Assembly (NCBI GenBank): GCA_965217095.1
Contig: OZ244235.1
Span: forward strand, 5,268,609 to 5,332,608
DNA: 64,000 nucleotides
Direction: 5' to 3'
Origin: Candidatus Latescibacterota bacterium
GTDB taxonomy: Bacteria > Latescibacterota > UBA2968 > UBA8231
Part shown: in pieces, positions 1 through 12,982 of the stretch
Layout of the letters: every line of letters starts with the position of its first letter
Position numbering within the stretch: position 1 is the first letter of the stretch
Translations under genes and position numbers: made by a program
The notes under the pieces: generated by a model
What the model was told of the DNA's origin: nothing
Seen by the model: only the letters and a program-made list of their open reading frames with translations
The model's database searches: none

Positions 1-651
1 GCTCCGTTCGGTGAGGGCTTGAATGCGCCGCCGTCGAACGAGGATATCGCCAGAGTGGCGACGGCAACGCTGTCGGATCCCGCCACCCACATTAGCAGGA
101 GCTATCGGCCGACTGGCCCCGAGCTGATTTCACCGCAGGATATCGCCGGCATCTTGAGTAACGTCCTCGAGCGCAAGGTCACCTACAAAGACGTGCCTTT
201 TAAGGCCTTCAATAAAGCGGCCGTTGCTCAGGGCTTTCCGGTTTCCGATATCGCCCACATCCACTACTACGCTGAGGACCTCAGAAATGGTGCGTTCGCC
301 GTCGGAGCCCCGACCGATCACGTGCGCCAAGTCACTGGCGTCGAACCCGAAGGCTTCGAGTCGATCGCACGACGCTACACTCAGAATCCGTCGCTGATTC
401 ACCCGAAGCTCGACACCGGATCGAGAATTGGCGCCATTCGGTTTCTCTTGAAGTTGATCGCTACCCCGCCAGCGGACCTGGAAGCCTGGGAGCGCGATCG
501 TGGATATCCGTTGCTGAACGATCCGACCCTGGCACAACAGAGCGCCGAGTGGCGCGAGACGGCTCAGCGACAACAACTGAATCTGCTGCCGGAAGTTGCG
601 GTTGATGACGCACGTCATGGCGATATCAAACTGACGGCGATAGCGTCGTAA
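1..651 (+). CDS. NmrA-like / NAD(P)H-binding family protein, C-terminal part (5' end outside window)
   Basis: The reading frame is open from nt 1, so the ORF track's M at nt 19 is internal. Motifs PQDIAGILSNVLERKVTYKDVPFKAF and the HIHYY region resemble NmrA-family C-termini. Confidence 0.55.
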   Translation, partial: APFGEGLNAPPSNEDIARVATATLSDPATHISRSYRPTGPELISPQDIAGILSNVLERKVTYKDVPFKAFNKAAVAQGFPVSDIAHIHYYAEDLRNGAFAVGAPTDHVRQVTGVEPEGFESIARRYTQNPSLIHPKLDTGSRIGAIRFLLKLIATPPADLEAWERDRGYPLLNDPTLAQQSAEWRETAQRQQLNLLPEVAVDDARHGDIKLTAIAS

Positions 652-691
652 CCGATCGATACAGCTACTGTTTGGTTAAGGAGATAGACCG

Positions 692-1555
692 ATGACCTCC
701 ACACACATAACTGAAACCCAGATTCTTCCCCCGTTGCCAGTGTCACGCCCGGATTCGATTAACGGCAATGATGGAGACGACTACCGTTACGAGACCTTCC
801 GTGCGGGTGTGCTCATGAACGACGCCCGGTTCTCACCCGATGCCCTCAAGCCGGGGCAACTCCTGCCGGACCAAACGCTGGTCCGACCGGACGGCGAAGA
901 GATCTCGTTGCGAAATCTAGCGGCCGGTCGGCCGATCGTACTCGTAACCGGCTCGCTTACGTGCCCTCTCAGCATCAGCTCACTGCCCGCATTCGCACAG
1001 TTGAACCGCACCTACGGCGAACGCGTGGCCTTCGCCTTCATCTATACTCGCGAGGCTCATCCCGGCGAAAGTCTGGGGCAACCCTCGACCCTGGAGGAAA
1101 AGATGGAGCATGCACGCCAGCTGCAAGAGGTCCACCGAGTCGATTGGCCCGTGTTAGTGGACGATCTGGACGGCACCGTCCATCGGAAGCTGGATACCAA
1201 GCAGAATTCCGTCCACATTGCTGACGCCGAGGGCCGGGTTGTATTTCGAGCCCTCTTTGCAGGTAGTAACGCGGTGGGAAAAGCGATCGCCGCCGTCGCC
1301 GAGACGGGGCAGCCTCACAAAAGCCAGATTCATGGCATGCTAACTGGCTCCATGAGGTCGATCGGCTACATCGACGAGACCCTGCGACTAGCTGGCTCGA
1401 AAGCCTACCGCGACGTCATCAAAGCTCTGCCACCGATGGCTGCCGTAGCACTGATGGCTCGCGCCTTCCCGTTCCTGCCTAAAGCCAACCGTGGTTGGGC
1501 GGCGATATCGCTGATGCTCGGCGCGGTTGCCGCCCTATGGCTCGCTTTCAGGTAG
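692..1555 (+). CDS. thioredoxin-fold (redoxin / deiodinase-like) protein with C-terminal hydrophobic anchor
   Basis: 287-aa ORF. The motif VLVTGSLTCPLS...LPAF is a Cys-containing Trx-fold active-site-like motif. The C-terminal AAVALMARAFPFL...AAISLMLGAVAALWLAF segment looks like a transmembrane anchor. Confidence 0.45.
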   Translation: MTSTHITETQILPPLPVSRPDSINGNDGDDYRYETFRAGVLMNDARFSPDALKPGQLLPDQTLVRPDGEEISLRNLAAGRPIVLVTGSLTCPLSISSLPAFAQLNRTYGERVAFAFIYTREAHPGESLGQPSTLEEKMEHARQLQEVHRVDWPVLVDDLDGTVHRKLDTKQNSVHIADAEGRVVFRALFAGSNAVGKAIAAVAETGQPHKSQIHGMLTGSMRSIGYIDETLRLAGSKAYRDVIKALPPMAAVALMARAFPFLPKANRGWAAISLMLGAVAALWLAFR

Positions 1556-1640
1556 AAACCACTGACCCAGAGGATCCCATGGTTGCATCATTCTCTCAAT
1601 TCACGAAGCCCTGGGCGATCTAGTTTTATTTGAGCAGTAT

Positions 1641-1654
1641 GTTGCATATACAAC
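1641..1654. promoter_or_regulatory. palindromic operator-like site GTTGCATATACAAC (copy 1 of 3, one mismatch)
   Basis: Near-perfect 14-bp palindrome 33 nt upstream of the RBS/ATG of the DUF1918-like gene. The same motif recurs at 2781 and 3300 around the MarR gene. Confidence 0.5.
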
Positions 1655-1686
1655 TTGCGAATCTCAATTCAAAAAGGAGGTAAGAG

Positions 1687-1950
1687 ATGTCTCGTTTTGA
1701 ACCGGGAAATACCGTCCGCTTCACCCATCAACAGGATCTAATAATCGGCGAAGTGGAGGAGATACGGCGAGGGTTTGAAGGGGATCATGTGCTCGTCGTC
1801 CGTCAAGGCGGACCATGGTCGGGTGATCGCTATATGGTCCTGTCGAGCTACGTGGAAAAGATCGGGTCTCACACTGCGGAGACTGAGGTGGACTTTCGGG
1901 CGGCTTCCCATGGGCAGCATAAGCCCAGCACACTCTCTACCGAGCACTAG
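1687..1950 (+). CDS. small DUF1918-like protein (hypothetical)
   Basis: 87-aa ORF with a strong RBS (AAAAAGGAGG). Weak resemblance to the DUF1918 small β-barrel proteins. The palindromic site lies just upstream. Confidence 0.5.
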   Translation: MSRFEPGNTVRFTHQQDLIIGEVEEIRRGFEGDHVLVVRQGGPWSGDRYMVLSSYVEKIGSHTAETEVDFRAASHGQHKPSTLSTEH

Positions 1951-1970
1951 CGCAAAAGGAGCACTCAAAA

Positions 1971-2449
1971 TGACGACCACAACTTTTCCATTTTCAATCA
2001 ATCACCACCTACGGGCAAAGAATCTGAACGTAGAACCGCCGAGAAGTCCGTATGAGAAAATCGCCGATCATGTGTTTGCAGCCCGGACCCTGGATAAGTG
2101 TCGGTCCTATCTGGCTGGAACACTCGGTGAATACGAGTTCAACTGCAAGCTCGATCGGCGGTGGTTCGACTTCACCGGAATCAACGTCATCGACTTTATG
2201 GAGTTCGTGGCTACTGGCGCGGATGACGATGAGGTGGATCGCTGGATTCGCGAGTATTCGGTTGCACGGGAGCGAGTCCAGATCGTGCAATGGAACAACC
2301 AAATGCGGGAACTGCGGATTAGCGAACTTCCAGAGCGGTCTCAAGTCTATATAGAGGACCTCTTATCATCTATCGTACCCTCAGGCAGATCACCGGCCAC
2401 CCTGTTCGAGGTTTTTGAGGTTGACGAAGGACGTCTGGAACTCGGATAA
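1971..2449 (+). CDS. hypothetical protein (about 159 aa)
   Basis: The ORF track gives 1775..2449. The likely start is the internal ATG at 1971 (MTTTTFPF...), preceded by AAGGAG. No family recognised. Confidence 0.5.
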
Positions 2450-2457
2450 GAGGCGAC

Positions 2458-2760
2458 ATGTCTGAGTTAATCTACAAGTGCACCAGTCGATGGGTCGTGC
2501 GGCGAGCGCTGCTACAAGCGCTCGTGGTTGGCCCCGTCCTAACTGCCATCAATCACGGAGGTGCGATTCTCCGAATGGAACTGGACGGGGCCCGAGTGCT
2601 GGCGATCGGTCTGACCCTCGTTGTGCCTTATCTGATTTCGACCATATCTATCGTGTCGGCGATGAACCGGAGTACACTTGACCCATCCCAAAAGCGCGCC
2701 GATATGTGGGCGCGAGGTACTTCTTGCGACCAAACGGTTTCAGCCAGCTGCGGTGAATAA
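2458..2760 (+). CDS. NrtS-like small membrane protein (putative nitrate/nitrite transporter NrtS family)
   Basis: 100 aa. RRALLQALVVGPVLTAINHGGAIL followed by a second hydrophobic helix resembles NrtS-family proteins. Confidence 0.4.
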   Translation: MSELIYKCTSRWVVRRALLQALVVGPVLTAINHGGAILRMELDGARVLAIGLTLVVPYLISTISIVSAMNRSTLDPSQKRADMWARGTSCDQTVSASCGE

Positions 2761-2761
2761 T

Positions 2762-2794
2762 TTGACAAGCCCGCTTTTTAGTTGTATATACAAT
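2762..2794 (+). promoter_or_regulatory. sigma70-like promoter (TTGACA-17-TATATA) overlapping palindrome GTTGTATATACAAT (copy 2)
   Basis: TTGACA at 2762-2767, a 17-bp spacer, then TATATA at 2785-2790. The -10 sits inside the palindrome. This is a typical autoregulated MarR promoter layout directly upstream of the MarR gene. Confidence 0.55.
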
Positions 2795-2822
2795 GAAACC
2801 TAGTCGCAGGAGGACATTTTAG

Positions 2823-3278
2823 TTGGGAAAAACGCAGGTAAGTTCCGGCGAAGCCACCGAAGTCAACTGTAGCTGTATCGCTGACAAGGTTCGGCTCCTT
2901 AACCGGGTAATTACAAAAGTCTACGACGACGCGCTAAAACCGGCTGGCATCACGACGGCACAGATGAACATTCTAGGGGTCGTCGCCAAATACGGGGATG
3001 CAACGCCTCGACAGGTATGTGACTGGTTGTCCATGGAAAAGTCGACGTTGAGTCGAAACTGTCGTCGCTTGCGCGAAAACGGCTGGATGAACGTAATCGA
3101 AGAAGATGGACGTGCCCATAGGTTTCAGATTACCGCCAAGGGTGCCAGGCTGTGGAAGAGAATCGTGCCCTTGTGGCAGGAGGCACAGGACCAGGTACAT
3201 GCACTTGTAGGCGAGCGTGGCGTAAGAGACGTGATGCGGATTGCCAATACCGTGAGGTCTCTCGATGCCGCCGAATAG
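2823..3278 (+). CDS. MarR family transcriptional regulator
   Basis: 151 aa with a TTG start after a GGAGGA RBS. Winged-helix MarR signature ITTAQMNILGVVAKYGDATPRQVCDWLSMEKSTLSRNCRRLRENGWMN. Confidence 0.8.
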   Translation: MGKTQVSSGEATEVNCSCIADKVRLLNRVITKVYDDALKPAGITTAQMNILGVVAKYGDATPRQVCDWLSMEKSTLSRNCRRLRENGWMNVIEEDGRAHRFQITAKGARLWKRIVPLWQEAQDQVHALVGERGVRDVMRIANTVRSLDAAE

Positions 3279-3299
3279 GGACTCTTTTTTGTGCTCTGT

Positions 3300-3313
3300 G
3301 TTGTATATACAAC
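3300..3313. promoter_or_regulatory. perfect palindrome GTTGTATATACAAC (copy 3)
   Basis: Identical 14-bp perfect palindrome 22 nt downstream of the MarR stop and upstream of the sensor-kinase gene. Confidence 0.5.
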
Positions 3314-3354
3314 TTTTTGAGTATAGGCCAGCGACGAGTATTCGTGTACTGCTC

Positions 3355-3374
3355 CGTAATTTCGTGAAATTACG
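3355..3374. promoter_or_regulatory. inverted repeat CGTAATTTC-GT-GAAATTACG in the sensor-kinase leader
   Basis: 9-bp perfect inverted arms with a 2-nt spacer, about 85 nt upstream of the kinase start. Confidence 0.35.
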
Positions 3375-3459
3375 AAATGTCGAGAGTCGTCGGTGCGTTC
3401 AGAGGCCAGGAGATGAACTGCAAGGACCTACTCAAAACCGATCGAAAACAGGGACTTAA

Positions 3460-5274
3460 GTGAATCCTCAAAGACAGAGGCAACCAATGGCACAAGAATT
3501 GCCAGAACTCGAATCGAGGGCACCATTGAAACAACAACCCACCAACATACATCGGGCGCCTTTCGAGCCCATCGTGATGAACGGCAATTCGATCAGAGGT
3601 AAACCCTTTGACTCTGGCCGCCCAGCTACCAAGGATTTCTTCCAGAGGGTTGTGCGCCCACTCACCGGATCTGCTGCCATTTTCGCCTTGATGAGCGTTG
3701 CGATTGCTTGGGCTGTTGGTATTTACGTTTACAAACTCGGCACAGATGAAGCGACGAAAATCGTGTACGAAAAGAATCTGACTCTGGCCCATGCGTTTGA
3801 ACAGTACGCCCGTAACGAGGGTGGTAATGGCAGCTCAGATCTGAGTTCCGTCCGAGCCGCCTGGAAACAGATGGACCAACCACCTGGAAGCTACCTGTGC
3901 ATCATTGGTGCGGACGGGATGGCAAAGGTTCACACAGCAGAGCCGGCTCTGGTGGGCACGTACATGGGGGACCAACGGATCGACGCCCATGGGTCGGGTC
4001 CACGCACGGTCAATCAGCTATTCGAAACCCGCCAAGATTGGGTCGGCCCTTCATACGGACTGAACGGCCAGGAAGAGATAGGTGCGTTCGTCTACAGCGA
4101 TGTCCTGGACGCACTGGTGGGCGTCTACAATCCGGCGCACTTGATAAACTCCGAGATTAGAGCCGCGGCGATGCCGGAGGCGGCAGGTATCGCGCTGGTC
4201 ACTACGGTACTTTTACCGATTACGTTTGTATTCCTGCACCGAGCCTACAAGGCCTCCCGGAGAGAGCTGGAGAGGACGAACGTGGAACTCAGGCAGGAGA
4301 TCCATGAGCGCCTAGCACTCGAGGGGAAAAACCGGCTGCTTGCGGCCTTCCCGCGGGAGAATCCGAACCCCGTCCTTGCCTGCGACAAGGAGGGGACGGT
4401 GGTGTACGCCAACGAGGCGGCGCAGCAGCTTCTCGACCAAACGGAGCTTGGGGAGAGCGGCAGATTGTTTCCCACAAATGAGTTTTCCCGGCCACAAAAT
4501 TGCCTTGACGAGGGCAAGTGCCGCTGGGGCATCGAAACAATCCTGGGCGATAGGGTGTATTCCTGGACCTACAATCCGGTTCCTTCCATCGAATGCATTC
4601 ACATCTACGGGAGAGACGTTACCGAGACCAAGCGTGCGCACGAGCGCATCGAGGAGTCTCTACGGGAAAAGGAGATTCTGCTGCAGGAAGTGTATCATCG
4701 CGTCAAGAACAACCTGCAGATCGTCTCCAGCCTGCTCAAGCAGCAATCGGCTGCTGTGCAAAACGAAGAAGCTCGCGGCGTGTTCAGCGAGATGCAGCAT
4801 CGCATCCACTCGATGGCACTGGTGCATCAGGCGCTCTATCAGTCGACCGATCTGGGCCAGATCGCCTTCGACGGATACATAAGGAACCTAGCGGCCAATC
4901 TCGTTCGCTCCAGCAACCAACAGGACCGCCGAGTCGCGTTGGAGTTTGATTTGGAGGAAATATCTCTCGGTCTCGACTACGCCATCCCCTGCGGTCTCAT
5001 CCTCAACGAACTGATTACCAATGCGATCAAATATGCGTTCCCGGAGGGCCGCCGGGGAACGATTCGGGTCGAATTGCGTAAGCTGACAGAGGGAAGTTTC
5101 AGAATGGCGGTCAGCGATGACGGTGCGGGGATCTCGGGCGGCATTGACCTGGAGAATCCGCTCACTCTGGGGCTGCGACTGGTGCACGATTTGACCTATC
5201 AATTGGGTGGAGAAATGAAGATTGATCACATCAATGGTACCACATTTCAGCTGACGTTCTCAGAGTCGGCTTAA
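3460..5274 (+). CDS. sensor histidine kinase (periplasmic sensor domain, PAS, HisKA_2, HATPase_c)
   Basis: 604 aa. GTG at 3460, or ATG at 3487. Two transmembrane segments flank a roughly 170-aa periplasmic region, followed by a PAS-like region. H-box LQEVYHRVKNNLQIVSSLL is the HisKA_2 type. C-terminal ATPase motifs NELITNAIKYAF and DDGAG. Confidence 0.8.
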   Translation: MNPQRQRQPMAQELPELESRAPLKQQPTNIHRAPFEPIVMNGNSIRGKPFDSGRPATKDFFQRVVRPLTGSAAIFALMSVAIAWAVGIYVYKLGTDEATKIVYEKNLTLAHAFEQYARNEGGNGSSDLSSVRAAWKQMDQPPGSYLCIIGADGMAKVHTAEPALVGTYMGDQRIDAHGSGPRTVNQLFETRQDWVGPSYGLNGQEEIGAFVYSDVLDALVGVYNPAHLINSEIRAAAMPEAAGIALVTTVLLPITFVFLHRAYKASRRELERTNVELRQEIHERLALEGKNRLLAAFPRENPNPVLACDKEGTVVYANEAAQQLLDQTELGESGRLFPTNEFSRPQNCLDEGKCRWGIETILGDRVYSWTYNPVPSIECIHIYGRDVTETKRAHERIEESLREKEILLQEVYHRVKNNLQIVSSLLKQQSAAVQNEEARGVFSEMQHRIHSMALVHQALYQSTDLGQIAFDGYIRNLAANLVRSSNQQDRRVALEFDLEEISLGLDYAIPCGLILNELITNAIKYAFPEGRRGTIRVELRKLTEGSFRMAVSDDGAGISGGIDLENPLTLGLRLVHDLTYQLGGEMKIDHINGTTFQLTFSESA

Positions 5275-5291
5275 GTCAGGAGAAAGGATAT

Positions 5292-5311
5292 GAAAAAGAC
5301 TCGCATACTAG
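5292..5311 (+). pseudogene. orphaned 5' end (codons 1-7, MKKTRIL) of the response-regulator gene, separated from the rest by an IS insertion
   Basis: ATG AAA AAG ACT CGC ATA CTA G sits directly after the kinase stop with RBS AGGAGAAAGG. Removing the IS plus one CTAG copy restores MKKTRILVVEDEILVARDL, a canonical receiver-domain N-terminus. Confidence 0.7.
5308..5311. repeat. target-site duplication CTAG (left)
   Basis: Identical 4-bp CTAG directly abuts both IS termini. Confidence 0.7.
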
Positions 5312-6946
5312 CCTGAATAATTCATGAATCCGCACCAAGCGAACGAATTCGGTGCGCTGGTCAATGGCTGGACGTTTTGGTAGCGGGTTGATCGAGTGCT
5401 GTCGGTCGTCGAGGTGTTGTCTGGGAGATCTGAGCCTCTTTTGGATGTCATTGGGACAGTCGGGTCCCTTGGTGGATCGTGTGCGTGGATGTAGTGGGAC
5501 ATCGCAAAGCATCATGAGGTGTCGAGGTTGAGGACGACGGTGCGCATCAGATCCTTGAGCGGGTATGACGTCGGAAAGTGAAAACGGACCTTGGTGGCTT
5601 GCTCCCGCACGCGGGCGCCGATTTTGAGCACCCGGAGTTGGATCGTGTTAAAGTTGGACGTCGTCCATTGGGTGCCGCGCATGCCAATCTGTTGGATCGT
5701 GTGCAGCAGCACGTAGGCCGCGCTGTGCAGGAAGAGGCGAAATTGGTTGGCCGAGAAGCGGTGGCAGGAGGTGCGGTCGGACTGCAGGTAGGTCTTGTGA
5801 TTCTTGATGAAGCCTTCCGACCGCCCACGAGCGCAGTAGATCTCCTCATACAGAAACTCGGGAGAGCGGTTGCGGATATTGGTCACCACGAAGCGCGGGT
5901 TGGCTTTGCCTTGTGTGATCTCGGCCTTGTAGATAATCTGGCGCGGTCGGGGCCAGCTCTTGGCCTGATACTCGAAGCGGTCAAAAAGCCGCACCGGTTC
6001 ATCGCTCTGCTCGGCCAGCGCCGCCACCAGCTCCATCAGCGGTTCGCCGAGTGCCTTGAGCTTGTTGTTGATCGCCTGTCCCAGAATGAAATCAATACCG
6101 TATCCGTCGCACAGGTCGTGCACCTCAGGGGTGCTGAAGTGTGAGTCGCCTCGTAAGGTGATCTTCGTCTTCGGCCACACCATGATCAAATGATCCAACA
6201 CGCGTTTGAGGATGGCTACCGCCTCTCGGCCTCGCATTCTACGACCGGGTCGCAGCAGCGTCGTGATCAATTTGCCCGACTCCCCTTCGTAGAGATGGAC
6301 CGGAAGGTAGCAATACTCGTCATAGTAGGCATGGAACAACGTGAGTTGCTGGGCGCCGTGTGCCGGATCGTCCGTGTCGTCGATGTCGATGGTGAGCTTC
6401 TTGGGCGGCTGGTCGTAAGACTCGATGAATATTTCCAGCAAAGCGAGCCCGATGCGATACAGATCCGAGCGGCTGACACTGTTTTCCAAACGAGACATGG
6501 TTGGTTGACTGGCCAAATCGTCTCCCGTCAGAGGCAGACGGTCGCACGCGGTTTTCAGACCCGGATCGCAACGCAGGTCGTCACTGTCATTGGCGTCCTC
6601 GTAGCCACAGGCGATCTGGAATACGCGCTGCCGGATGAGGTCAGTATACGTATGGTCGATATAGCTTTGATGTCGACGATCCGACATCGCCGCCACGATT
6701 CGGTCGACGATCCCGGTGCGGGCTTCCGCTGGTCGCAGAAGCAGGGCGCCCCCATCACTGGTGGTCATGCCACCGTCAAAATCAGCTTCGATCTTTTTGC
6801 CCGAGATGTTTGCAAACGATAGCGCGATCTGCGAAGTTTCCATCTGCGGTGGCCCTCTTGATTGGTTGTTGTTTGTGGGTAACCCTAACGTAGGGCAAAA
6901 CAACCAGTTGTACAGAGGCTCACCGCATTTTTATGAATAATTCAGG
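5312..6946 (-). mobile_element. IS1380-family insertion sequence (1635 bp)
   Basis: Terminal inverted repeats CCTGAATAATTCATGAA (5312-5328) and CCTGAATTATTCATAAA (reverse complement of 6930-6946) match at 15 of 17 positions and start with CC as in IS1380. Flanked by a 4-bp CTAG duplication. Single 443-aa DDE transposase ORF. Confidence 0.8.
5512..6843 (-). CDS. IS1380-family DDE transposase
   Basis: The ORF track gives 5512..6903. The likely start is METSQIAL at 6843. The N-terminus (SFANISGKKIEADFDGGMTTSDGGALLLRPAEARTGI) and overall length are typical of IS1380 transposases. Confidence 0.8.
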   Translation of the reverse strand: METSQIALSFANISGKKIEADFDGGMTTSDGGALLLRPAEARTGIVDRIVAAMSDRRHQSYIDHTYTDLIRQRVFQIACGYEDANDSDDLRCDPGLKTACDRLPLTGDDLASQPTMSRLENSVSRSDLYRIGLALLEIFIESYDQPPKKLTIDIDDTDDPAHGAQQLTLFHAYYDEYCYLPVHLYEGESGKLITTLLRPGRRMRGREAVAILKRVLDHLIMVWPKTKITLRGDSHFSTPEVHDLCDGYGIDFILGQAINNKLKALGEPLMELVAALAEQSDEPVRLFDRFEYQAKSWPRPRQIIYKAEITQGKANPRFVVTNIRNRSPEFLYEEIYCARGRSEGFIKNHKTYLQSDRTSCHRFSANQFRLFLHSAAYVLLHTIQQIGMRGTQWTTSNFNTIQLRVLKIGARVREQATKVRFHFPTSYPLKDLMRTVVLNLDTS

Positions 6947-6950
6947 CTAG
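6947..6950. repeat. target-site duplication CTAG (right)
   Basis: See the left duplication. Confidence 0.7.
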
Positions 6951-7891
6951 TGGTAGAGGATGAAATTCTCGTCGCAAGAGACCTGCAGTCCAGTTTGGAA
7001 CTCCTTGGATACGACGTTCCAGAGATTGCTATCTCGGGCGCGGAGGCGTTGGAAAAAATAAAAGCTACTCAACCAGATGTGGTGCTGATGGATATCCACC
7101 TGAAGGGCGACATGGATGGCGTGGAGGCCGCTGGCATAATCCGCGAGCAGTACGACATCGCGCTCATCTACCTGACCGCATACGCCGACGACCAGACCCT
7201 GCAGCGCGCGAAACTCACGCAGCCGTACGGCTACCTGTTAAAACCGTATCAGGAAACAGAGTTGAAAACCACTATCGAAGTGGCCCTCTACAAACATGAA
7301 ACCGAGGACAAGCTGAAGGTCGCCCACCTGCAACTGGAGCGCGCGCATGCGCAGATCCGGCGCCAGGTGCGGGAGTTGGAGGGCCGTGACCAGCTGGTGC
7401 GATTTCAGGTGACCGGTCCCACCGTTGTCGAGGCTTGCGATCAGATCGCTCGGATCTTTTCCGCTGTTTTCGGGCCCACTCAAATCGCGGTCTATCTGCC
7501 CGACGCCAGCGCTACCTGGCTCGAGTTGACTTCGAGTTCCGTCGCGGGTATCGACAGCACCGATCTCACTGACAGATTGGTCGCCAACGATCCGGATTCA
7601 CTGGTTGCCGCGTCTTTTCGGCATGCCGCTGCGCGGCTCAGTGTCGACGGCGGGCAAGCGGCGGTCGCCATGCGCTACGGAGACCGGGCTGTGGGTGTGG
7701 TTATGCTCGCGGCCGTCGAGCAGGAAAGTTGGCCGGCCGCCGAGCTGATCCCGGCTTTGCGTCGACTAGGTGAACAATCGGCTTTACTGCTGCGCATGGC
7801 CCGGGTTGCGACGGAACTGGATGGAGGACAGCTAACGGTTGAGGAACTCCTGGAGCTCGAGGAAGAGGCCAGCTATGACGATGGTGCGTGA
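6950..7891 (+). CDS. response regulator (REC plus C-terminal coiled-coil/GAF-like domain), 5'-disrupted by IS1380
   Basis: The REC domain begins abruptly at VVEDEILVARD... with only a GTG available at the IS junction. The native start lies at 5292, upstream of the IS. The C-terminal ~180 aa look GAF-like. Confidence 0.7.
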   Translation: MVEDEILVARDLQSSLELLGYDVPEIAISGAEALEKIKATQPDVVLMDIHLKGDMDGVEAAGIIREQYDIALIYLTAYADDQTLQRAKLTQPYGYLLKPYQETELKTTIEVALYKHETEDKLKVAHLQLERAHAQIRRQVRELEGRDQLVRFQVTGPTVVEACDQIARIFSAVFGPTQIAVYLPDASATWLELTSSSVAGIDSTDLTDRLVANDPDSLVAASFRHAAARLSVDGGQAAVAMRYGDRAVGVVMLAAVEQESWPAAELIPALRRLGEQSALLLRMARVATELDGGQLTVEELLELEEEASYDDGA

Positions 7892-10133
7892 GCGACCCAT
7901 GAAACGGCGATCTTCTTTGCTCGAGTCAGAACTCCCCGATCCCGCACTATCCGATGTTGAAAGTGTCGACCGCTTTCTGGAAGAGGTCGACGCGTTCGCT
8001 GAGTACGATCCGGACGCTTCCGTTGCAGAGCCGCAATCAGTCAGCGTGCATCAACAGCAACGGATCCGCCGCTTGGCGAGCGCTCTTGGGAGGGTGGCTG
8101 CGGACCTGAAGCGCGTTGAGGCGCCGCCCGGATTCGAACCCGCGGGGGCCCAGCCGTACTATGAGCTGGATATGGAAGGACAGCGACTGGCCATTCGCCA
8201 CGATGGGCTGCAAGCCTTTTGGATTTCCGATCCCGACTGGCAGGAACCGGAACGGCTGGCTGAGCTGCTCCACGCCCATGGTCTCATAGAGATCAATCGA
8301 GAGGCGATTACGGGCGGAGCACAGCGACTGCGGGACCAGTGGATTGAGGTAGCCGCAGGATCCGCCCCCACCGCGGGTCACGCAGCCCAGATCGGCTTCG
8401 TGGAACCGGGCAACCCGAACTCAGAGATTTCACCGGAATCGCTGGGTTTGATTTCCCTGGAACTGGCAGAGACGTTGAAATCCCAGGATGCCAAGGCCAT
8501 CCGCAAGAATCGCAGCGCCCTCGTCGCCGCACCCGGCGATCTGTTGGCCCGAGCCACATCCCCGACGCCTGGCCAATCGGGGCAAGACATATTCGGCCGG
8601 AACGTGGCGGCCGCGATCGAGAGCCGGGAACTCCATCTGCAAGCGGGATCCCACGTGACCTCGACGGACGCCGGGGAGTTTCATGCTGCCCGGTACGGCT
8701 ATGTCGCTATTGAGGACGGTCGACTTTCCATTCTGCCACCCATTCGAAGCGATGCCACCTCCATGAACGCCCACTGGGCGATGATGGGTAGCCAACGCTC
8801 CTCCCTTACAGTCGCGATGATCCAAGAGTGGCTGGTCGAGCTCGACGTCAACACGGGTGTGAAAGTGGATGTCATCGAAGCTCTGGTGGCCAAGGTCGGC
8901 GCTGGCGAGCACCCCACCGGCAGGCACCTAATTGCTGTCGGCTCGAGCCCTGTCGACGGGGAGGACGCGCATGTGGAAATTCTGGTAGATATGGAACGAA
9001 GCGCCGGCAAAGAGCGGGAAGATGGCTCCATCGATTTCAGGGAAGTCAACTTCACTCCCAACGTACGAGCGGGTCAGCGGGTGGCCTGGCGCACTAGCCC
9101 GACAACCGGCACCCCGGGCTGGGACCTTACCGGTAACGCCCAACCTGCCAACAACGGCAAGGAGCAGGTGTTGCAGGCTGGAGAGAACGTCCGGGTTGTC
9201 GAAGAGAGCGACCAAGAGGAGTACTACTCGTTGATCGACGGAGTGCTGAAACAGCACGGAGACGAACTTTCGGTGGCAGAGCGCCTAACCATCAACGGCG
9301 ATGTGAGTTATCGCACCGGAAATCTGGACTTCGGCGGCGAGATCTTTGTTAACGGTTCGGTGCTCTCTGGATTCTCGGTCAAGGCGGCCGGCGATATTAC
9401 GGTTTCCGGCACCTTAGAACCTGGCGCCACGCTTCAATCCGGAGGAGATATCGCCGTCGGCAAGGGGATACTGGGGCGCAAAACCAAGGTGAAGGCCGAG
9501 GGGAACATTCGCGCCCAGCTAGTCCAGGAGGCCAACCTGCGCGCCGGAAACAACATTCAAGTCGGCAATTATATCTACCATGCCAACGTCAAAGCCAAAG
9601 GGAAAGTTCTGGTATCTCGCGGCAAAGGTCGTCGGGGGGGAAGCATCATGGGAGGTGAGACCTGGGGCATGTTGGGCGTCGAAGCGCATATCGTCGGAAC
9701 GCCCAGCGAAACTCCGACGACGCTGGTGGCGGGTTTGAGTTACGAAGATGCTCAGTTGCTCGACCGGCTGGAACGTAGCATTGGCACTGCCAGCGATCAC
9801 ATCGAACGCCTTCTCGAACGATTTGCGCTCGATCACTTCGATCTCGTTCAGATCCGCAACATGATCAAGGCAGCCGTCGGTCCGAAACGCAAGATACTCG
9901 CCAAGAATGCGCGCCAGCTGGGACAGCTTGCCCAGATGTATCAACAGCTGTTGGAGCGGCGCGGAACCTTGAGAGAAAGGGTGGAATCGGTGCGCGAGTG
10001 CATAGAGGTAAAGATCTGGGACAGCGCTCATGCCGGCGTAGAAGCCCGATTGGGAGAATTTCGCCGCCGGCTCTCGGAGTTGTACCGGGCACCGCGATTT
10101 CATATCAAAGAGGGCACGATGGTGGCGGCCTAG
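7875..10133 (+). CDS. FapA/DUF342-like β-solenoid protein
   Basis: Long ORF, 764 aa by the track from 7839. Probable start ATG at 7875 or 7899. The C-terminal half is full of short β-helix repeats (GDVSYRTGNLDFGGEIFVNGSV, GDITVSGTL, GGDIAVGKG, GNIRAQLV, GNNIQVGNY), then a coiled coil, as in FapA proteins. Located 3' of the kinase/regulator pair. Confidence 0.5.
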   Translation: MTMVRERPMKRRSSLLESELPDPALSDVESVDRFLEEVDAFAEYDPDASVAEPQSVSVHQQQRIRRLASALGRVAADLKRVEAPPGFEPAGAQPYYELDMEGQRLAIRHDGLQAFWISDPDWQEPERLAELLHAHGLIEINREAITGGAQRLRDQWIEVAAGSAPTAGHAAQIGFVEPGNPNSEISPESLGLISLELAETLKSQDAKAIRKNRSALVAAPGDLLARATSPTPGQSGQDIFGRNVAAAIESRELHLQAGSHVTSTDAGEFHAARYGYVAIEDGRLSILPPIRSDATSMNAHWAMMGSQRSSLTVAMIQEWLVELDVNTGVKVDVIEALVAKVGAGEHPTGRHLIAVGSSPVDGEDAHVEILVDMERSAGKEREDGSIDFREVNFTPNVRAGQRVAWRTSPTTGTPGWDLTGNAQPANNGKEQVLQAGENVRVVEESDQEEYYSLIDGVLKQHGDELSVAERLTINGDVSYRTGNLDFGGEIFVNGSVLSGFSVKAAGDITVSGTLEPGATLQSGGDIAVGKGILGRKTKVKAEGNIRAQLVQEANLRAGNNIQVGNYIYHANVKAKGKVLVSRGKGRRGGSIMGGETWGMLGVEAHIVGTPSETPTTLVAGLSYEDAQLLDRLERSIGTASDHIERLLERFALDHFDLVQIRNMIKAAVGPKRKILAKNARQLGQLAQMYQQLLERRGTLRERVESVRECIEVKIWDSAHAGVEARLGEFRRRLSELYRAPRFHIKEGTMVAA

Positions 10134-10759
10134 GTTAGTCAGAGAGTTGATGGCCTATCGCTATTCTGTTCTGACACTAAACAGACTGTGCGCTTCGATG
10201 AGTGCTGCTGCTCGGATTATGTTGCTGATGGATGCTGTTGTGAAATCAAGGAATCTTGGCGACTAGCTGCGAACGCTGCCGAAAAATGGATATTCAGGAC
10301 GCCTTCACTATTAGACGCCCCGCTTGCTCAGCCACACCTTAGGATCTCCTATCTCGAAGTTCCGCTTAGTGATACCCAGTTTCCAAGGAATCGTCCGCAC
10401 GATCCCTGTCGTACACTGGCAGACTTAAAACAAGCCCTCCTGATCTAGTAGCACACTTTTCCTCAGTTCGACTGTAATCCTTTCATCAACAGACGTCGTG
10501 ACGCCGTCTACATACCAAAGGAGAAAGTGTGCGCGAAGTCAGATTAGAAACCCGTGGTGACGCAGAAGAAGCGCTGCACGAGAGCGATGAAAGTTGGAAC
10601 GCTCTCTATACGGAGCGTGACTCGTAAACCCGGCTTTTTGCCGGTCCGGCCACGAATTCGGTGGGCCGTTTTTTACTTTGGCTCCTCGAGATCCGTCTAT
10701 ATTGTGAGGCTCGAGGAGATCTTTGTTAGAGCGACGAGAGGCGGACAACCATGACACCT

Positions 10760-11773
10760 CTACACGGAACGCGTGATGGTTCCGCACGGGGACCGGTGAC
10801 CCGACCGCGGCGTGGTGACGAATTCCGGAGCCGACCAGGTCATGCCGTCGTTGGTGGAGAATGCGACGCAGGGGGTTTCGAAGTCCGGTGTAGCACCCCA
10901 ATGTTGGTGCATGCAGACCATCAGCCGTCCGTCCGGCAGCTTGTGCACCCCTGAGTAGTTGTAACCCGCGTACATGTCGCCGCCGATGGGGGTAATGTGT
11001 GGGCTGATGCAGGCAACGTTGCTGACGTACTCGAAGCTAATGCCATTGTTGTAGCTGACGTAGTAGGCACAGATGTTGCGCCGGTAGATTCCTCCGACGA
11101 TGCCCAGAACTCCGTTGTCGAAGCGGACGTGGCCGAGGTTGACCGACAGAAAACCTCCGCCGGGCGCCCATCTGGGCGCGTCGAGCAGCGTCGCGTGCTT
11201 CTCCCAGGTGCGGCCACGGTCCGTGCTGCGCACACAGAACGACACGCAGTGCTTGGGTTTGCCCAGGTGAAAGTTGATCCCCTCGTTCGGTTGGTTCGAC
11301 GACCCTCCAATCGGAAATTTCACACTACTCTCCGCCTCGCAGAAGTGGATGATCGAGTCCGGGTCACCCAGGTCGATTTCCTCGCGCTCGCCGATGTCGC
11401 GTGGGCGCAGCCAGTCGAGCGTCTCGTCGATCGTGCGGTTGTTGTTCCAGATCCACTGGCGCTCGCTCTCGGGCCAGGTCTCACCCCAATCGAGGGAGCG
11501 GCTCAGCATCACCCCGGATTCGCTGCCCCATTTCTCGTGGGCCCCTCGAAAGGAAGGGTCTCCACCGCCGTGGCGGTTGTGCCCCGTCGGCAGATCGCCC
11601 GTGTAGTTCATCGGTACGGCGATGTAGGCGATGGCGATCTCGCCGTCACCGAAGTTCCAGATTCCACCTCGGTTAGGGGCGAACGGGTACAGATGTTCGT
11701 CGTGGTGGATCTTGATGTGCCTGACGTCGCTAACCTCGACCTGGCCTACGCCGACAGTTCGTCTTGATTCCAT
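10760..11773 (-). CDS. BNR/Asp-box repeat glycoside hydrolase (sialidase-like)
   Basis: Asp-box motifs RSTDRGRTW and STNDGMTWS. Start chosen at MESRR (GGAGAAG RBS). The track ORF extends to 11800. Confidence 0.55.
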   Translation of the reverse strand: MESRRTVGVGQVEVSDVRHIKIHHDEHLYPFAPNRGGIWNFGDGEIAIAYIAVPMNYTGDLPTGHNRHGGGDPSFRGAHEKWGSESGVMLSRSLDWGETWPESERQWIWNNNRTIDETLDWLRPRDIGEREEIDLGDPDSIIHFCEAESSVKFPIGGSSNQPNEGINFHLGKPKHCVSFCVRSTDRGRTWEKHATLLDAPRWAPGGGFLSVNLGHVRFDNGVLGIVGGIYRRNICAYYVSYNNGISFEYVSNVACISPHITPIGGDMYAGYNYSGVHKLPDGRLMVCMHQHWGATPDFETPCVAFSTNDGMTWSAPEFVTTPRSGHRSPCGTITRSV

Positions 11774-11931
11774 CAATGCTTCTCCGACAGGTTGTGGCAT
11801 GTTGTGCGCGATGTGATCACGGCGAAGGCACCGAAGCGCTCCTGCTCGGTGAGGACCGTGCTAATAAACGATATTATCGGCAGCGGCCAAGCGACAGTGT
11901 GCGACCCGACATTCACCGTGAGGAGATTGTG

Positions 11932-12759
11932 ATGCCCAAGTCAGGAGAAAAGCCCAACGCCCATCTCTACCCCGAGGGCGGTCCGGGACGGCAATTGAAG
12001 GGGCGCTTGAAGGTGGGAGAGGTGTTGGTCGGAGGAATCATCTTCGAATACACCCGCCCGCCACTGGTGAGGTTTTACCAGCAGGCCGGCTTCGACTTCA
12101 TCTACATCGAATACGAGCACATGTTCATGGATCCCTCGTCCCTGGTGGACACGGTTCAGTGCGCGCGCGACAACGGTTTGCCCATAATCGCCAAGCCCCC
12201 GACGCTCGACCAGGCCGAGGTGGCCAAGCTGATGGAGTGCGGCGTCGTGGGCATCCAGTTGCCTCGCACCGGGTCGCGCGAAGAAATAGCGACGCTGATC
12301 GACTGGGTGAGATTTACTCCGGTGGGCCACCGAGCCCTAGCTTCCGGTTACGGTAATAGCGACTACGTCCGGCCTGATGACAAGCGTGCGTGGATGGATG
12401 CGCAAGATGAAGAAATAGCTGTCGTGGCGATGATCGAGACACGGCAGGGATACGAGCATGCCGAGGAGATCATCAGCACCCCAGGTGTCGACATGCTCTA
12501 CGTAGGGCAGAGTGATTTCGCGGTGGAAATGGGCCAGCCTGGAAATGGCGAGCATCCAGACGTCAGGGGACCGATAGAGGAAATTCTCGAGATCTGCAAG
12601 AAGCACGACGTGCCCTTTGGCACCAACGCAGCGAACCTGGAAGCGGCTAAACGGTATGTGGACAACGGCGCCCTCTTCTTCGAAACGGTCGACGAACGAA
12701 TCCTCATCACCGAGGGGGCCAAGCAGGTGGTGGAGGACTATCGCAGGATACTCGCGTGA
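11932..12759 (+). CDS. HpcH/HpaI family 2-keto-3-deoxy-sugar-acid aldolase
   Basis: Start MPKSGEK after GAGGAG. Motifs FIYIEYEHM and PIIAKPPTLDQAEVAKLMECGVVGIQLP are typical of the HpcH/HpaI aldolase family. Confidence 0.7.
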   Translation: MPKSGEKPNAHLYPEGGPGRQLKGRLKVGEVLVGGIIFEYTRPPLVRFYQQAGFDFIYIEYEHMFMDPSSLVDTVQCARDNGLPIIAKPPTLDQAEVAKLMECGVVGIQLPRTGSREEIATLIDWVRFTPVGHRALASGYGNSDYVRPDDKRAWMDAQDEEIAVVAMIETRQGYEHAEEIISTPGVDMLYVGQSDFAVEMGQPGNGEHPDVRGPIEEILEICKKHDVPFGTNAANLEAAKRYVDNGALFFETVDERILITEGAKQVVEDYRRILA

Positions 12760-12982
12760 GATGTCGTGGCGGCCGATCAAACCTGGTCCGCCGAGGGCAT
12801 GATCCGCGGTTACGACCGGGAACGGGCCCGACGCCGGTTGCTGGACGACAGCGGCCGCGTGGCGATCGATCCCGCCGTCGAAACGGACCGATTCCCGACG
12901 AAGCGAACGATTTCGATTTCACTTAACTGCCGAATTGGGAGGACCTGATTCGGATCATGCCCTCAACGAGAGATGACTGACC

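What the first reader, a model, noticed from the sequence alone, without database searches (positions are those of the whole stretch)
5292..7891. IS1380-family element inserted at codon 7 of the response-regulator gene, uncoupling a kinase/regulator/FapA-like operon
A precise junction can be reconstructed: ATG AAA AAG ACT CGC ATA CTA G | IS (CC-initiated 17-bp inverted repeats, 1635 bp) | CTAG TG GTA GAG GAT GAA...

Removing the IS and one CTAG copy restores MKKTRILVVEDEILVARDL, a canonical receiver-domain start. The insertion is therefore recent, since the target-site duplication is intact, and it leaves the regulator with only a GTG start at the IS edge. Expression of the regulator and the downstream FapA-like gene would depend on an outward promoter from the IS or on read-through.
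Basis: seen in the sequence. Interest (0 to 1): 0.55.

Follow-up and report, generated by a model that had tools for sequence, protein, structure and literature searches.

The report
IS1380 insertion splitting a response-regulator gene
A 1.6-kb jumping gene of a well-known family (IS1380) has recently landed seven codons into a signalling (response-regulator) gene and almost certainly switched it off; near-identical strains still carry the intact gene, so this is a real but ordinary strain-level mutation.

Summary
A 1635-bp IS1380-family element lies at 5312-6946. It has a 443-aa DDE transposase on the minus strand and imperfect CC-initiated terminal repeats. It is flanked by a perfect CTAG duplication and interrupts a response-regulator gene after codon 7.

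The empty site exists. Three contigs 99.5-99.9% identical in the flanks, plus a sister-species contig, run straight through ATGAAAAAGACTCGCATACTAGTGGTAGAGG with a single CTAG. The three near-identical contigs encode exactly the reconstructed 320-aa protein. None of the other 119 closest homologues starts at VVEDE.

The element is active. An identical copy sits on a 57-kb circular contig, and related copies occupy different sites in sister strains. In 62 relatives the 4-bp duplications are overwhelmingly YTAR.

The cut removes three of the five residues of receiver strand beta1 and the native AGGAG ribosome site. I found no consensus promoter. A conserved hairpin plus T-run at the IS edge looks like an outward-facing terminator, so read-through from the kinase gene is unlikely. 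The most likely outcome is a null, polar allele of a conserved kinase / REC-GAF regulator / FapA-like module.

This is a new member of a known kind, of low to moderate interest.

The parts
3487..5274 (+). Sensor histidine kinase gene (595 aa; PAS + HisKA_2/HWE + HATPase_c), intact. Left without its partner regulator by the insertion.
   Evidence: Pfam HisKA_2 2.2e-26, HATPase_c, PAS_4. 591/596 positions (595 aa plus stop) identical to the orthologs in L004 and L005.
5290..5316 (+). Orphaned 5' stub of the response-regulator gene: its AGGAG ribosome site 7 nt upstream, the ATG and codons 1-7. It then reads into the IS and stops (MKKTRILA*).
   Evidence: Sequence read. Identical to the first 22 bases of the intact gene in L003-L005.
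5308..5311 (.). Left copy of the 4-bp target-site duplication, CTAG.
   Evidence: locus coordinates 10019-10022 of L003-L005 align to both 5308-5311 and 6947-6950.
5312..6946 (-). Complete IS1380-family insertion sequence, 1635 bp, with a single transposase ORF.
   Evidence: Boundaries come from the empty-site alignments. A 100% identical 1635-bp copy is in L002 and a 99.88% copy in L004.
5312..5329 (+). Terminal inverted repeat at the end downstream of the transposase gene (IRR), CCTGAATAATTCATGAAT. It abuts the kinase-proximal stub.
5512..6843 (-). Transposase gene, 443 aa, with the DDE triad and Y(2)R(3)E(6)K motif intact.
   Evidence: NCBIfam NF033539 379.6 bits against a cut-off of 180. 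Pfam DDE_Tnp_1_4 1.8e-151. D153/D155, D233, Y336, R339, E343 and K350 are invariant in 12 relatives down to 43% identity.
6845..6927 (.). Conserved long hairpin between IRL and the transposase start. On the transposase strand it buries the ribosome site and the ATG. On the + strand it is the stem of a terminator-like structure facing the regulator gene.
   Evidence: Repeat pair I1. Sense-strand fold -36.5 kcal/mol, z = -3.5, 0 of 200 shuffles fold as well. Present in 13/13 representative relatives, with different but self-complementary outer arms such as GCGGTG/CACCGC and GGTAGTTTCC/GGAAACTACC.
6928..6932 (+). T-run (TTTTT) directly after the hairpin on the + strand. Hairpin and T-run together look like an intrinsic terminator, 14 nt inside the IS edge.
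   Evidence: A run of 4-6 T follows the hairpin within a few bases in all 13 relatives folded.
6929..6946 (-). Terminal inverted repeat upstream of the transposase gene (IRL), CCTGAATTATTCATAAAA. It abuts the regulator remainder.
6947..6950 (.). Right copy of the target-site duplication, CTAG. Its G is the first base of the GTG.
6950..7891 (+). Remainder of the response-regulator gene (codons 8-320; REC, long helix, GAF-like domain). Annotatable only from GTG, with no proper ribosome site.
   Evidence: Pfam Response_reg, with protein residues 2-109 matching profile positions 4-110. 100% identical to residues 8-320 of intact P0121. AlphaFold2 model pLDDT 87, with beta1 at residues 5-9 of the intact protein.
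7875..10133 (+). FapA-like (DUF342) gene, 752 aa. It overlaps the regulator's 3' end by 17 nt and is intact.
   Evidence: Pfam FapA 2.4e-54 and FapA_N 1.1e-39. 753/753 positions (752 aa plus stop) identical to L005. The start codon is taken from the orthologous gene calls.

Best explanation
A transposase-competent IS1380-family element transposed into a CTAG site formed by codons 7-8 of the response-regulator gene. It made the usual staggered cut and 4-bp duplication. This happened recently, within one strain lineage of the species; the host is probably a Candidatus Latescibacterota bacterium, though that is inferred only from where the IS's relatives live.

Shown:
- the insertion and its exact borders;
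- the empty site in sister strains;
- the element's family, its intact catalytic motifs, its YTAR target preference and its mobility in the population.

Inferred: the allele is a loss-of-function, polar mutation.
- The regulator loses its AGGAG ribosome site and residues 1-7, which include three of the five residues of the central beta1 strand of the receiver domain. Only a GTG remains, 3 nt after a bare AGG.
- Transcription from the kinase promoter must cross 1.6 kb of untranslated antisense IS and then meets a hairpin plus T-run 14 nt before the IS edge.
- The kinase is therefore left without its partner, and the regulator remainder and the FapA-like gene are probably silent or nearly so.
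For: Anatomy and borders.

Family. The nearest annotated plasmid relatives, at 43-46% identity, are mostly annotated 'IS1380 family transposase'.

Empty site: L003-L005 align to the window up to 5311 and resume at 6947, with 4 bases (CTAG) shared, at 99.5-99.9% identity. They encode P0121, which equals the reconstructed 320-aa protein. Sister-species locus L001 is also empty.

N-termini: 19 aligned homologues all have (T)R/K-I/V-L-V/I-V-E-D/N-E. 119 of the 120 best homologues are not truncated this way: 114 have 5-32 residues before the motif, 5 lack the motif in their first 40 residues, and only the window's own gene call has none.

Mobility:
- an identical copy in L002 and a 99.88% copy at a different site in L004;
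- a 96% copy in L003;
- at least 10 copies of a 1604-bp derivative in a conspecific MAG.

Target preference: 53 of 62 related elements have perfect 4-bp duplications and 46 of these are YTAR. 109 of 124 flanks are YTAR, against a background of 0.0045 per position.

Effect on the protein: in the model, beta1 is residues 5-9.

Expression: no consensus promoter; hairpin plus T-run on the + strand, conserved in 13/13 relatives.

Module: conserved synteny in L001 and L096-L098.
Against: Nothing contradicts the structural claim.

The functional part is untested.
- The promoter scan covers only sigma-70-type consensus, and the host's promoter type is unknown.
- A weak TTGTAC-17-TATGAA pair (read by eye, 7 of 12 matches) lies at 6909-6937. 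It could start transcripts downstream of the hairpin.
The two sites it did flag are no more than chance gives.
- The FapA-like gene has its own GAGG ribosome site and could have an internal promoter inside the regulator gene.
- The kinase, regulator remainder and FapA-like genes show no decay. That fits recency, but it also fits continued use.
- Whether the insertion is fixed or a minority variant in the sampled population is unknown.
Confidence: 0.9

Rival explanations
1. The IS rewires rather than kills. A promoter reading out of the transposase-upstream end drives a GTG-initiated, N-terminally shortened regulator and the FapA-like gene independently of the kinase operon promoter.
For: Outward promoters are documented in this family for ISEcp1 and ISPme1 (PMC9330008). 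The downstream genes are intact. NCBI and ENA gene callers annotate a 313-aa product from GTG 6950 (P0001). A weak TTGTAC-17-TATGAA pair (read by eye) lies just inside the edge.
Against: [quoted passage not shown] Here that end faces the kinase gene in antisense.
- No sigma-70-like site passes the scan.
- The ribosome site is reduced to AGG at 3-nt spacing.
- Three of the five beta1 residues are missing, and no natural homologue is this short.
Confidence: 0.1
2. Read-through rescue. Transcription from the kinase promoter continues through the IS, and the regulator remainder and FapA-like gene are still expressed at useful levels.
For: The tool's terminator scan finds only two weak sites on the + strand (5357-5371 and 6145-6162), which is no more than shuffles give.
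Against: - The long hairpin 6845-6927 is followed by TTTTT on the + strand and is conserved, with compensatory changes, in 13/13 relatives.
- 1.6 kb of untranslated RNA would be expected to provoke Rho-dependent polarity (general knowledge, not tested).
- Translation of the regulator would still lack a ribosome site.
Confidence: 0.1
3. The occupied site is ancestral, and the empty sites in other strains arose by precise excision.
For: None specific. Precise excision of an IS with loss of one repeat copy does occur at low frequency.
Against: The empty site is found in three conspecific contigs from three samples and in a sister species about 90% identical across the regulator and FapA-like genes. 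The regulator's N-terminus is conserved in all homologues. The IS is identical to a copy elsewhere.
Confidence: 0.02
4. Assembly artefact: the assembler placed a repeated IS inside the gene by mistake.
For: The IS is multicopy in related genomes, and repeats are a common cause of misjoins.
Against: A misjoin would not create a perfect 4-bp duplication of a YTAR target exactly at both IS termini, with both flanks colinear with the empty-site contigs.
Confidence: 0.02

Closest known systems
IS1380 family insertion sequences (e.g. IS1380, IS1247, ISPme1, ISEcp1)
   Same: - A single DDE transposase of about 440 aa that matches the family's curated model above its cut-off.
- Y(2)R(3)E(6)K motif.
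- Length of 1.6-1.7 kb. IS1247 is 1672 bp with 16-bp repeats and a 5-bp duplication (PMC3281130 Table 2).
- Short imperfect terminal repeats starting with CC, and a 4-bp duplication.
- Two alphaproteobacterial plasmid members at 43-46% identity are also flanked by CTAG.
   Different: - Only 43-46% identical to the annotated plasmid-borne members.
- At most 88% identical to any copy in the species-representative genome set. By the ISfinder isoform rule quoted in PMC4133298 it would therefore get its own name.
- AT-rich palindromic ends (TGAATWATTCA).
- The leader hairpin is followed on the opposite strand by a T-run in this clade, but not in the two plasmid relatives folded.
- No evidence here of the outward promoter or one-ended 'transposable module' behaviour of ISEcp1 and ISPme1.
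IS5-group elements that target YTAR/CTAG
   Same: A 4-bp duplication of a YTAR tetranucleotide. That this is the classic IS5 preference is from my own knowledge, not checked here.
   Different: The transposase is not IS5-like. It matches the IS1380 equivalog model and DDE_Tnp_1_4, and it is a single 443-aa ORF in a 1.6-kb element.
Insertional inactivation of two-component regulator genes by IS elements
   Same: An IS lands in the 5' end of a regulator gene of a kinase/regulator operon. It removes the start and is polar on downstream genes. Such events are a common class of spontaneous mutation (general knowledge).
   Different: Here it is seen as a natural strain polymorphism in uncultured bacteria. 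No phenotype or selective context is known.
HWE/HisKA_2 kinase + receiver-domain regulator systems; FapA (DUF342) proteins
   Same: - The kinase has HisKA_2/HWE + HATPase_c.
- The regulator has a canonical receiver domain.
- The downstream protein has the FapA_N + FapA beta-solenoid architecture.
- The whole-chain fold matches REC-GAF sensor modules such as 6OAQ.
   Different: - The regulator's output is a GAF-like domain with no DNA-binding or enzymatic domain.
- The function of this kinase / REC-GAF / FapA-like triad is uncharacterised.
- The name FapA comes from a Vibrio flagellar-assembly protein (own knowledge). That says nothing firm about the role here.

Membership tests
IS1380 family (insertion sequence) | Transposase matches the curated family model above its trusted cut-off | tested here: met
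   NCBIfam NF033539.1 (equivalog) 379.6 bits against a cut-off of 180, covering profile positions 2-418 of 419. Pfam PF13701 DDE_Tnp_1_4 504.7 bits.
IS1380 family (insertion sequence) | Intact DDE catalytic residues with the Y-(2)-R-(3)-E-(6)-K signature | tested here: met
   DIDDT (D153/D155), RGDSH (D233) and YCARGRSEGFIKNHK (Y336, R339, E343, K350) are invariant across 12 relatives at 43-100% identity. Assigning these residues to catalytic roles rests on general knowledge of IS4/IS1380-type transposases.
IS1380 family (insertion sequence) | Single-ORF element of roughly 1.55-2.0 kb | tested here: met
   1635 bp with one 443-aa ORF. The family size range is from memory of ISfinder. IS1247 is 1672 bp (PMC3281130).
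IS1380 family (insertion sequence) | Short imperfect terminal inverted repeats beginning with CC | tested here: met
   CCTGAATAATTCATGAA versus CCTGAATTATTCATAAA, 15/17 matching. The same ends are found in 62 relatives. The 'CC' rule is from memory of ISfinder.
IS1380 family (insertion sequence) | 4-5 bp target-site duplication | tested here: met
   CTAG on both sides, single in the empty sites. 53/62 relatives have a perfect 4-bp duplication.
IS1380 family (insertion sequence) | Evidence of actual mobility | tested here: met
   Presence/absence polymorphism between contigs 99.5-99.9% identical in the flanks. Identical or 99.9% copies lie at other sites. No transposition assay was possible.
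ISEcp1/ISPme1-type behaviour within IS1380 (outward promoter, one-ended mobilisation of adjacent DNA) | Outward-directed promoter at the end downstream of the transposase gene, and capture of flanking DNA | tested here: inconclusive
   No sigma-70-like site was found anywhere in 5100-7200, but the host's promoter type is unknown. Both ends are the authentic repeats with a matching duplication, so no extra DNA was mobilised here.
Two-component response regulator (receiver domain) | Complete (beta/alpha)5 receiver fold, including beta1 and the acidic pocket | tested here: not met
   The intact allele P0121 meets it: Pfam Response_reg, and a pLDDT-87 model with beta1 at residues 5-9. The window's allele starts at residue 8, so it keeps E10, D11 and D55 but lacks R5, I6 and L7 of beta1. 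No natural homologue is this short.
FapA / DUF342 family | FapA_N region plus the C-terminal beta-solenoid domain | tested here: met
   PF20250 1.1e-39 and PF03961 2.4e-54. A role in flagellar assembly was not tested.

The most novel reading that the evidence does not exclude
The conserved hairpin plus T-run at the transposase-upstream end of this Latescibacterota IS1380 clade may be a built-in outward-facing terminator, doubling as a ribosome-site-sequestering hairpin for the transposase message. Every insertion in this orientation would then be an obligate transcriptional insulator. Together with YTAR targeting and massive copy-number expansion, the clade would be actively dismantling signalling modules in these probably host-associated bacteria. 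The same kinase / REC-GAF / FapA-like module carries an independent lesion in the sister species, a deletion of the kinase's sensor half in L001.
Probability: 0.2. Interest if true: 0.4.

Novelty: new member of a known kind. Interest (0 to 1): 0.2.

Why it matters
This is a clean natural example of an IS knocking out a regulator, with both the occupied and the empty allele available in near-identical genomes. It is useful in three ways.

1. Annotation: the 313-aa 'MVEDE...' protein in the public record is a truncated remnant, not a real start.
2. It documents an active, expanding IS1380 lineage with YTAR target choice in Candidatus Latescibacterota.
3. It is a natural mutant for the uncharacterised kinase / REC-GAF / FapA-like module, should transcriptomes or phenotypes ever become available.

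It opens no new question in transposon biology or signalling.

Tried and rejected
- An exact 45-nt IS-end pattern in the species-representative genomes found nothing. The source genome, or an identical IS, is not among the representatives, so I could not count copies in the 6.7-Mb source chromosome. The indirect evidence is that the identical transposase (P0128) and the 334-aa derivative ORF (P0132) are both recorded on a 6,706,622-bp contig.
- Looking up the truncated protein P0001 in the contig index gave 'not on record'. The source record name and sample were therefore not obtained.
- The sigma-70 promoter scan of 5100-7200 found nothing. The two terminator-like hits are at chance level.
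- An Rfam scan of 1-14000 found no family.
- RNAalifold on a MAFFT alignment of 17 leader regions recovered only the inner helix, because the outer arms were aligned out of register. I used per-sequence folds instead. No formal covariation statistic is therefore given for the outer stem.
- A whole-window repeat search found no second IS copy or IS fragment in the 64 kb.
- Literature: no open-access paper holds both 'IS1380' and 'CTAG'. The Siguier et al. family review could not be retrieved, so some family features are quoted from memory and marked as such.
- The host taxon was not established. The window's larger ORFs gave no phylogenetic marker, and the Latescibacterota assignment rests only on where the IS's relatives live.
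- I rejected the idea that the YTAR preference is peculiar to this clade. Two alphaproteobacterial plasmid members at 43-46% identity are also flanked by CTAG.
Full report
**1. What is in the sequence**

Reading 3000-10000 shows a kinase gene ending at 5274. It is followed by an AGGAG ribosome site and then ATG AAA AAG ACT CGC ATA CTA G, with the ATG at 5290-5292. Next comes CCTGAATAATTCATGAAT...

At the other side the sequence is ...ATTTTTATGAATAATTCAGG | CTAG TG GTA GAG GAT GAA.

- The segment 5312-6946 is 1635 bp.
- Its ends are imperfect inverted repeats starting with CC, with 15 of the first 17 bases matching. The repeat finder gives arms 5307-5328 / 6930-6951 as 91% complementary.
- The end motif occurs only at these two places in 64 kb. 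Chance would give 0.09 matches, and 0 of 100 shuffles gave two.
- CTAG flanks both sides, at 5308-5311 and 6947-6950.
- Inside, on the minus strand, lies one long ORF. From ATG 6843 to the stop at 5512 it encodes 443 aa.
- The upstream stub now reads MKKTRILA-stop.
- An in-frame TAA at 6938-6940 blocks any fusion from the IS, so the regulator remainder can begin only at GTG 6950.

The only corrections are that the ATG starts at 5290 and that the break lies after the first base of codon 8.

**2. The empty site exists**

A search with the reconstructed 320-aa protein returned two close hits. One is the window's own truncated product (P0001, 313 aa, 'MVEDE...'). The other is an 88%-identical ortholog (P0002) that starts MNKTRILVVEDE.

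The 90% cluster of P0001 also holds P0121, a 320-aa protein identical to the reconstruction.

P0121 is encoded on three contigs from three samples, L003-L005. Blastn of these against the window gives 99.5-99.9% identity. The alignments stop at window 5311 and resume at 6947. The locus coordinates overlap by exactly four bases, the single CTAG.

The sister-species locus L001 shows the same uninterrupted junction.

All 19 aligned homologues carry (T)R/K-I/V-L-V/I-V-E-D/N-E at the N-terminus. Among the 120 best hits:
- 114 have 5-32 residues ahead of the hydrophobic-acidic beta1 motif;
- 5 lack the motif in their first 40 residues;
- 1 has none, and that is P0001 itself.

The insertion is real and derived.

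**3. What the element is**

- The transposase scores 379.6 bits on NCBIfam NF033539 'IS1380 family transposase' (cut-off 180) and 504.7 bits on Pfam DDE_Tnp_1_4.
- In an alignment with relatives at 43-88% identity, the DIDDT and RGDSH aspartates and the Y(2)R(3)E(6)K block are invariant. The enzyme therefore looks functional.
- Size, single ORF, CC-initiated repeats and a 4-bp duplication all fit the family. IS1247, an accepted member, is 1672 bp with 16-bp repeats and a 5-bp duplication (PMC3281130).
- The nearest annotated plasmid-borne relatives are only 43-46% identical, and most are annotated 'IS1380 family transposase'.
- In one genome per species the best match is 88%, and nearly all matches are in Candidatus Latescibacterota MAGs, often in tens of copies per chromosome.

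It is therefore a new member of a known family, in a lineage where that family has expanded.

**4. Target choice and activity**

For 62 related elements with recognisable ends:
- 53 have a perfect 4-bp duplication;
- 46 of those are YTAR (CTAG 18, CTAA 11, TTAG 10, TTAA 7);
- 109 of 124 flanks fit YTAR, against a background of 0.0045 per position.

Two alphaproteobacterial plasmid members are also flanked by CTAG. The preference is thus not peculiar to this clade.

The window has only 61 CTAG sites, where base composition predicts about 235. Codons 7-8 of the regulator (CTA GTG) happen to provide one.

The element is demonstrably mobile in this population:
- A 1635/1635 identical copy sits on a 57-kb contig flagged circular (L002).
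- A copy with two mismatches lies downstream of the FapA-like gene in L004, at a site that is empty in the window.
- A 96% copy lies upstream in L003.
- A 1604-bp derivative occupies at least ten sites in a conspecific MAG.

The window itself holds just this one copy.

**5. Consequences for the genes** (inferred unless marked as shown)

The three genes form a tight unit. The kinase stop is 15 nt from the regulator's ATG, and the regulator's end overlaps the FapA-like start (7875) by 17 nt. The order HisKA_2 kinase / REC regulator / FapA-like is kept in homologues at 49-51% identity.

An AlphaFold2 model of the intact regulator (pLDDT 87) has three parts:
- a receiver domain with beta1 at residues 5-9;
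- a long helix at 109-161;
- a GAF-like domain at 166-299.

Whole-chain fold hits are REC-GAF sensor modules such as 6OAQ.

The insertion removes residues 1-7 and turns Val8 into the initiator. Three of the five beta1 residues of the central strand are lost.

The native AGGAG, 7 nt from the ATG, is replaced by AGG 3 nt from the GTG.

The kinase, the regulator remainder and the FapA-like gene are otherwise intact: 591/596, 314/314 and 753/753 positions identical to L005, counting the stop codon. This fits a very recent event.

**6. Can expression be rescued?**

The sigma-70-type scan finds no promoter in 5100-7200.

The outward promoters known in this family (ISEcp1, ISPme1) read out of the end downstream of the transposase gene (PMC9330008). 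Here that end faces the kinase gene in antisense, not the regulator.

For read-through from the kinase promoter, the + strand carries a long hairpin at 6845-6927, immediately followed by TTTTT at 6928-6932, 14 nt before the IS edge.

- On the transposase strand the same hairpin pairs with the ribosome site and start codon (-36.5 kcal/mol, z = -3.5).
- Folding 13 representative relatives one by one shows the hairpin in every case.
- The outer arms differ in sequence but stay complementary: GCGGTG...CACCGC, GGTAGTTTCC...GGAAACTACC, GCGATGTCC...GGACACCGC.
- A run of 4-6 T follows the hairpin within a few bases on the antisense strand.
- Two plasmid relatives have the hairpin but not the T-run.

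I read this as a leader hairpin that shields the transposase from outside transcription. In this clade it also looks like an outward-facing intrinsic terminator.

Read-through into the regulator is therefore unlikely, and the allele is most probably null and polar. This is an inference. The tool's own terminator scan did not flag the structure because its loop limit is exceeded. Promoters of this phylum may not fit the consensus used.

**7. Comparison, novelty and score**

The element is a member of the IS1380 family on every feature that could be tested. It works like any cut-or-copy DDE insertion sequence. The event is ordinary insertional inactivation of a regulator gene.

What is new is modest:
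- an unnamed IS lineage in an uncultured phylum;
- its YTAR preference documented on dozens of copies;
- a conserved edge structure;
- a natural knock-out of an uncharacterised kinase / REC-GAF / FapA-like module.

The public 313-aa annotation is a truncated remnant.

Interest 0.2; novelty: new member of a known kind.

**8. Limits**

- The source record, the host taxon and the IS copy number in the source chromosome could not be obtained.
- Rfam found nothing.
- The family review I wanted for the defining features was not retrievable, so those features are partly quoted from memory.

Noticed in passing
L086-L095 (IS at 2102-3705 of each); the deleted stretch corresponds to window 6683-6713: A 1604-bp derivative of the same IS occupies at least 10 different sites in a conspecific MAG. 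It has a 31-bp deletion between 11-nt direct repeats (GGATCGTCGAC), which splits the transposase into 85 + 334 aa. About half of the copies have matching YTAR duplications; four have non-matching flanks. A defective copy seems to have kept spreading, presumably using transposase from an intact copy. Its 334-aa ORF is also recorded on the 6.7-Mb contig.
   Followed up: partly
L002 2898-4532 (contig ctg809132_56x_c, 57,293 bp, flagged circular): A 100% identical copy of the IS sits on a 57-kb apparently circular contig at 56x coverage, next to a TonB-dependent receptor gene. It may be a plasmid that carries the element between genomes. Its flanks are TTAG and CTAG, which do not match.
   Followed up: no
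window 6845-6932; the same position in L006-L079: The hairpin between IRL and the transposase start is conserved across relatives at 57-88% transposase identity, with different but self-complementary outer arms. It covers the ribosome site and start codon. In this clade it is followed on the opposite strand by a T-run, which makes it terminator-like. Two alphaproteobacterial relatives have the hairpin without the T-run.
   Followed up: partly
window 10407-10780; L003 13851-17440; L004 13852-17400; L005 13479-15084: A second strain-variable spot lies just downstream of the FapA-like gene. The window lacks about 3.5 kb that L003 and L004 carry (SBP_bac_3, sulfatase fragment, UxuA, the 3' end of a BNR gene, and in L004 an IS copy). 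L005 has a third arrangement. No IS or YTAR signature is visible at the window's breakpoint.
   Followed up: partly
L001 9093-9133 versus window 3345-4422: In the sister species the same module has a different lesion. About 1 kb is deleted, covering the kinase's upstream region and N-terminal sensor half, and only a 41-nt remnant of the membrane segment is left. The kinase call there is 291 aa. Two independent lesions in one module may point to relaxed selection.
   Followed up: partly
L006, L018-L020, L031, L042, L051, L062, L083, L086-L088, L094, L002: About one copy in six has two different YTAR tetranucleotides at its ends (for example TTAG / CTAG). This is what recombination between IS copies, and hence genome rearrangement, would leave.
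   Followed up: no
whole window: CTAG occurs 61 times in 64 kb where base composition predicts about 235. The element's preferred target is therefore roughly four-fold depleted in this genome.
   Followed up: no
L096 and proteins P0006, P0007, P0011: One 3.18-Mb contig encodes three paralogues of this REC-GAF regulator. The one examined again sits between a HisKA_2 kinase (there with its own receiver domain) and a FapA-like gene. The triad is thus a recurrent, sometimes multi-copy module of unknown function.
   Followed up: partly
L003 8194-9905 and 10947-13203: The kinase and FapA-like genes are split into two calls each in this 12x contig, although it is 99.6-99.9% identical to the window. 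These are most likely long-read indel errors rather than real frameshifts.
   Followed up: no
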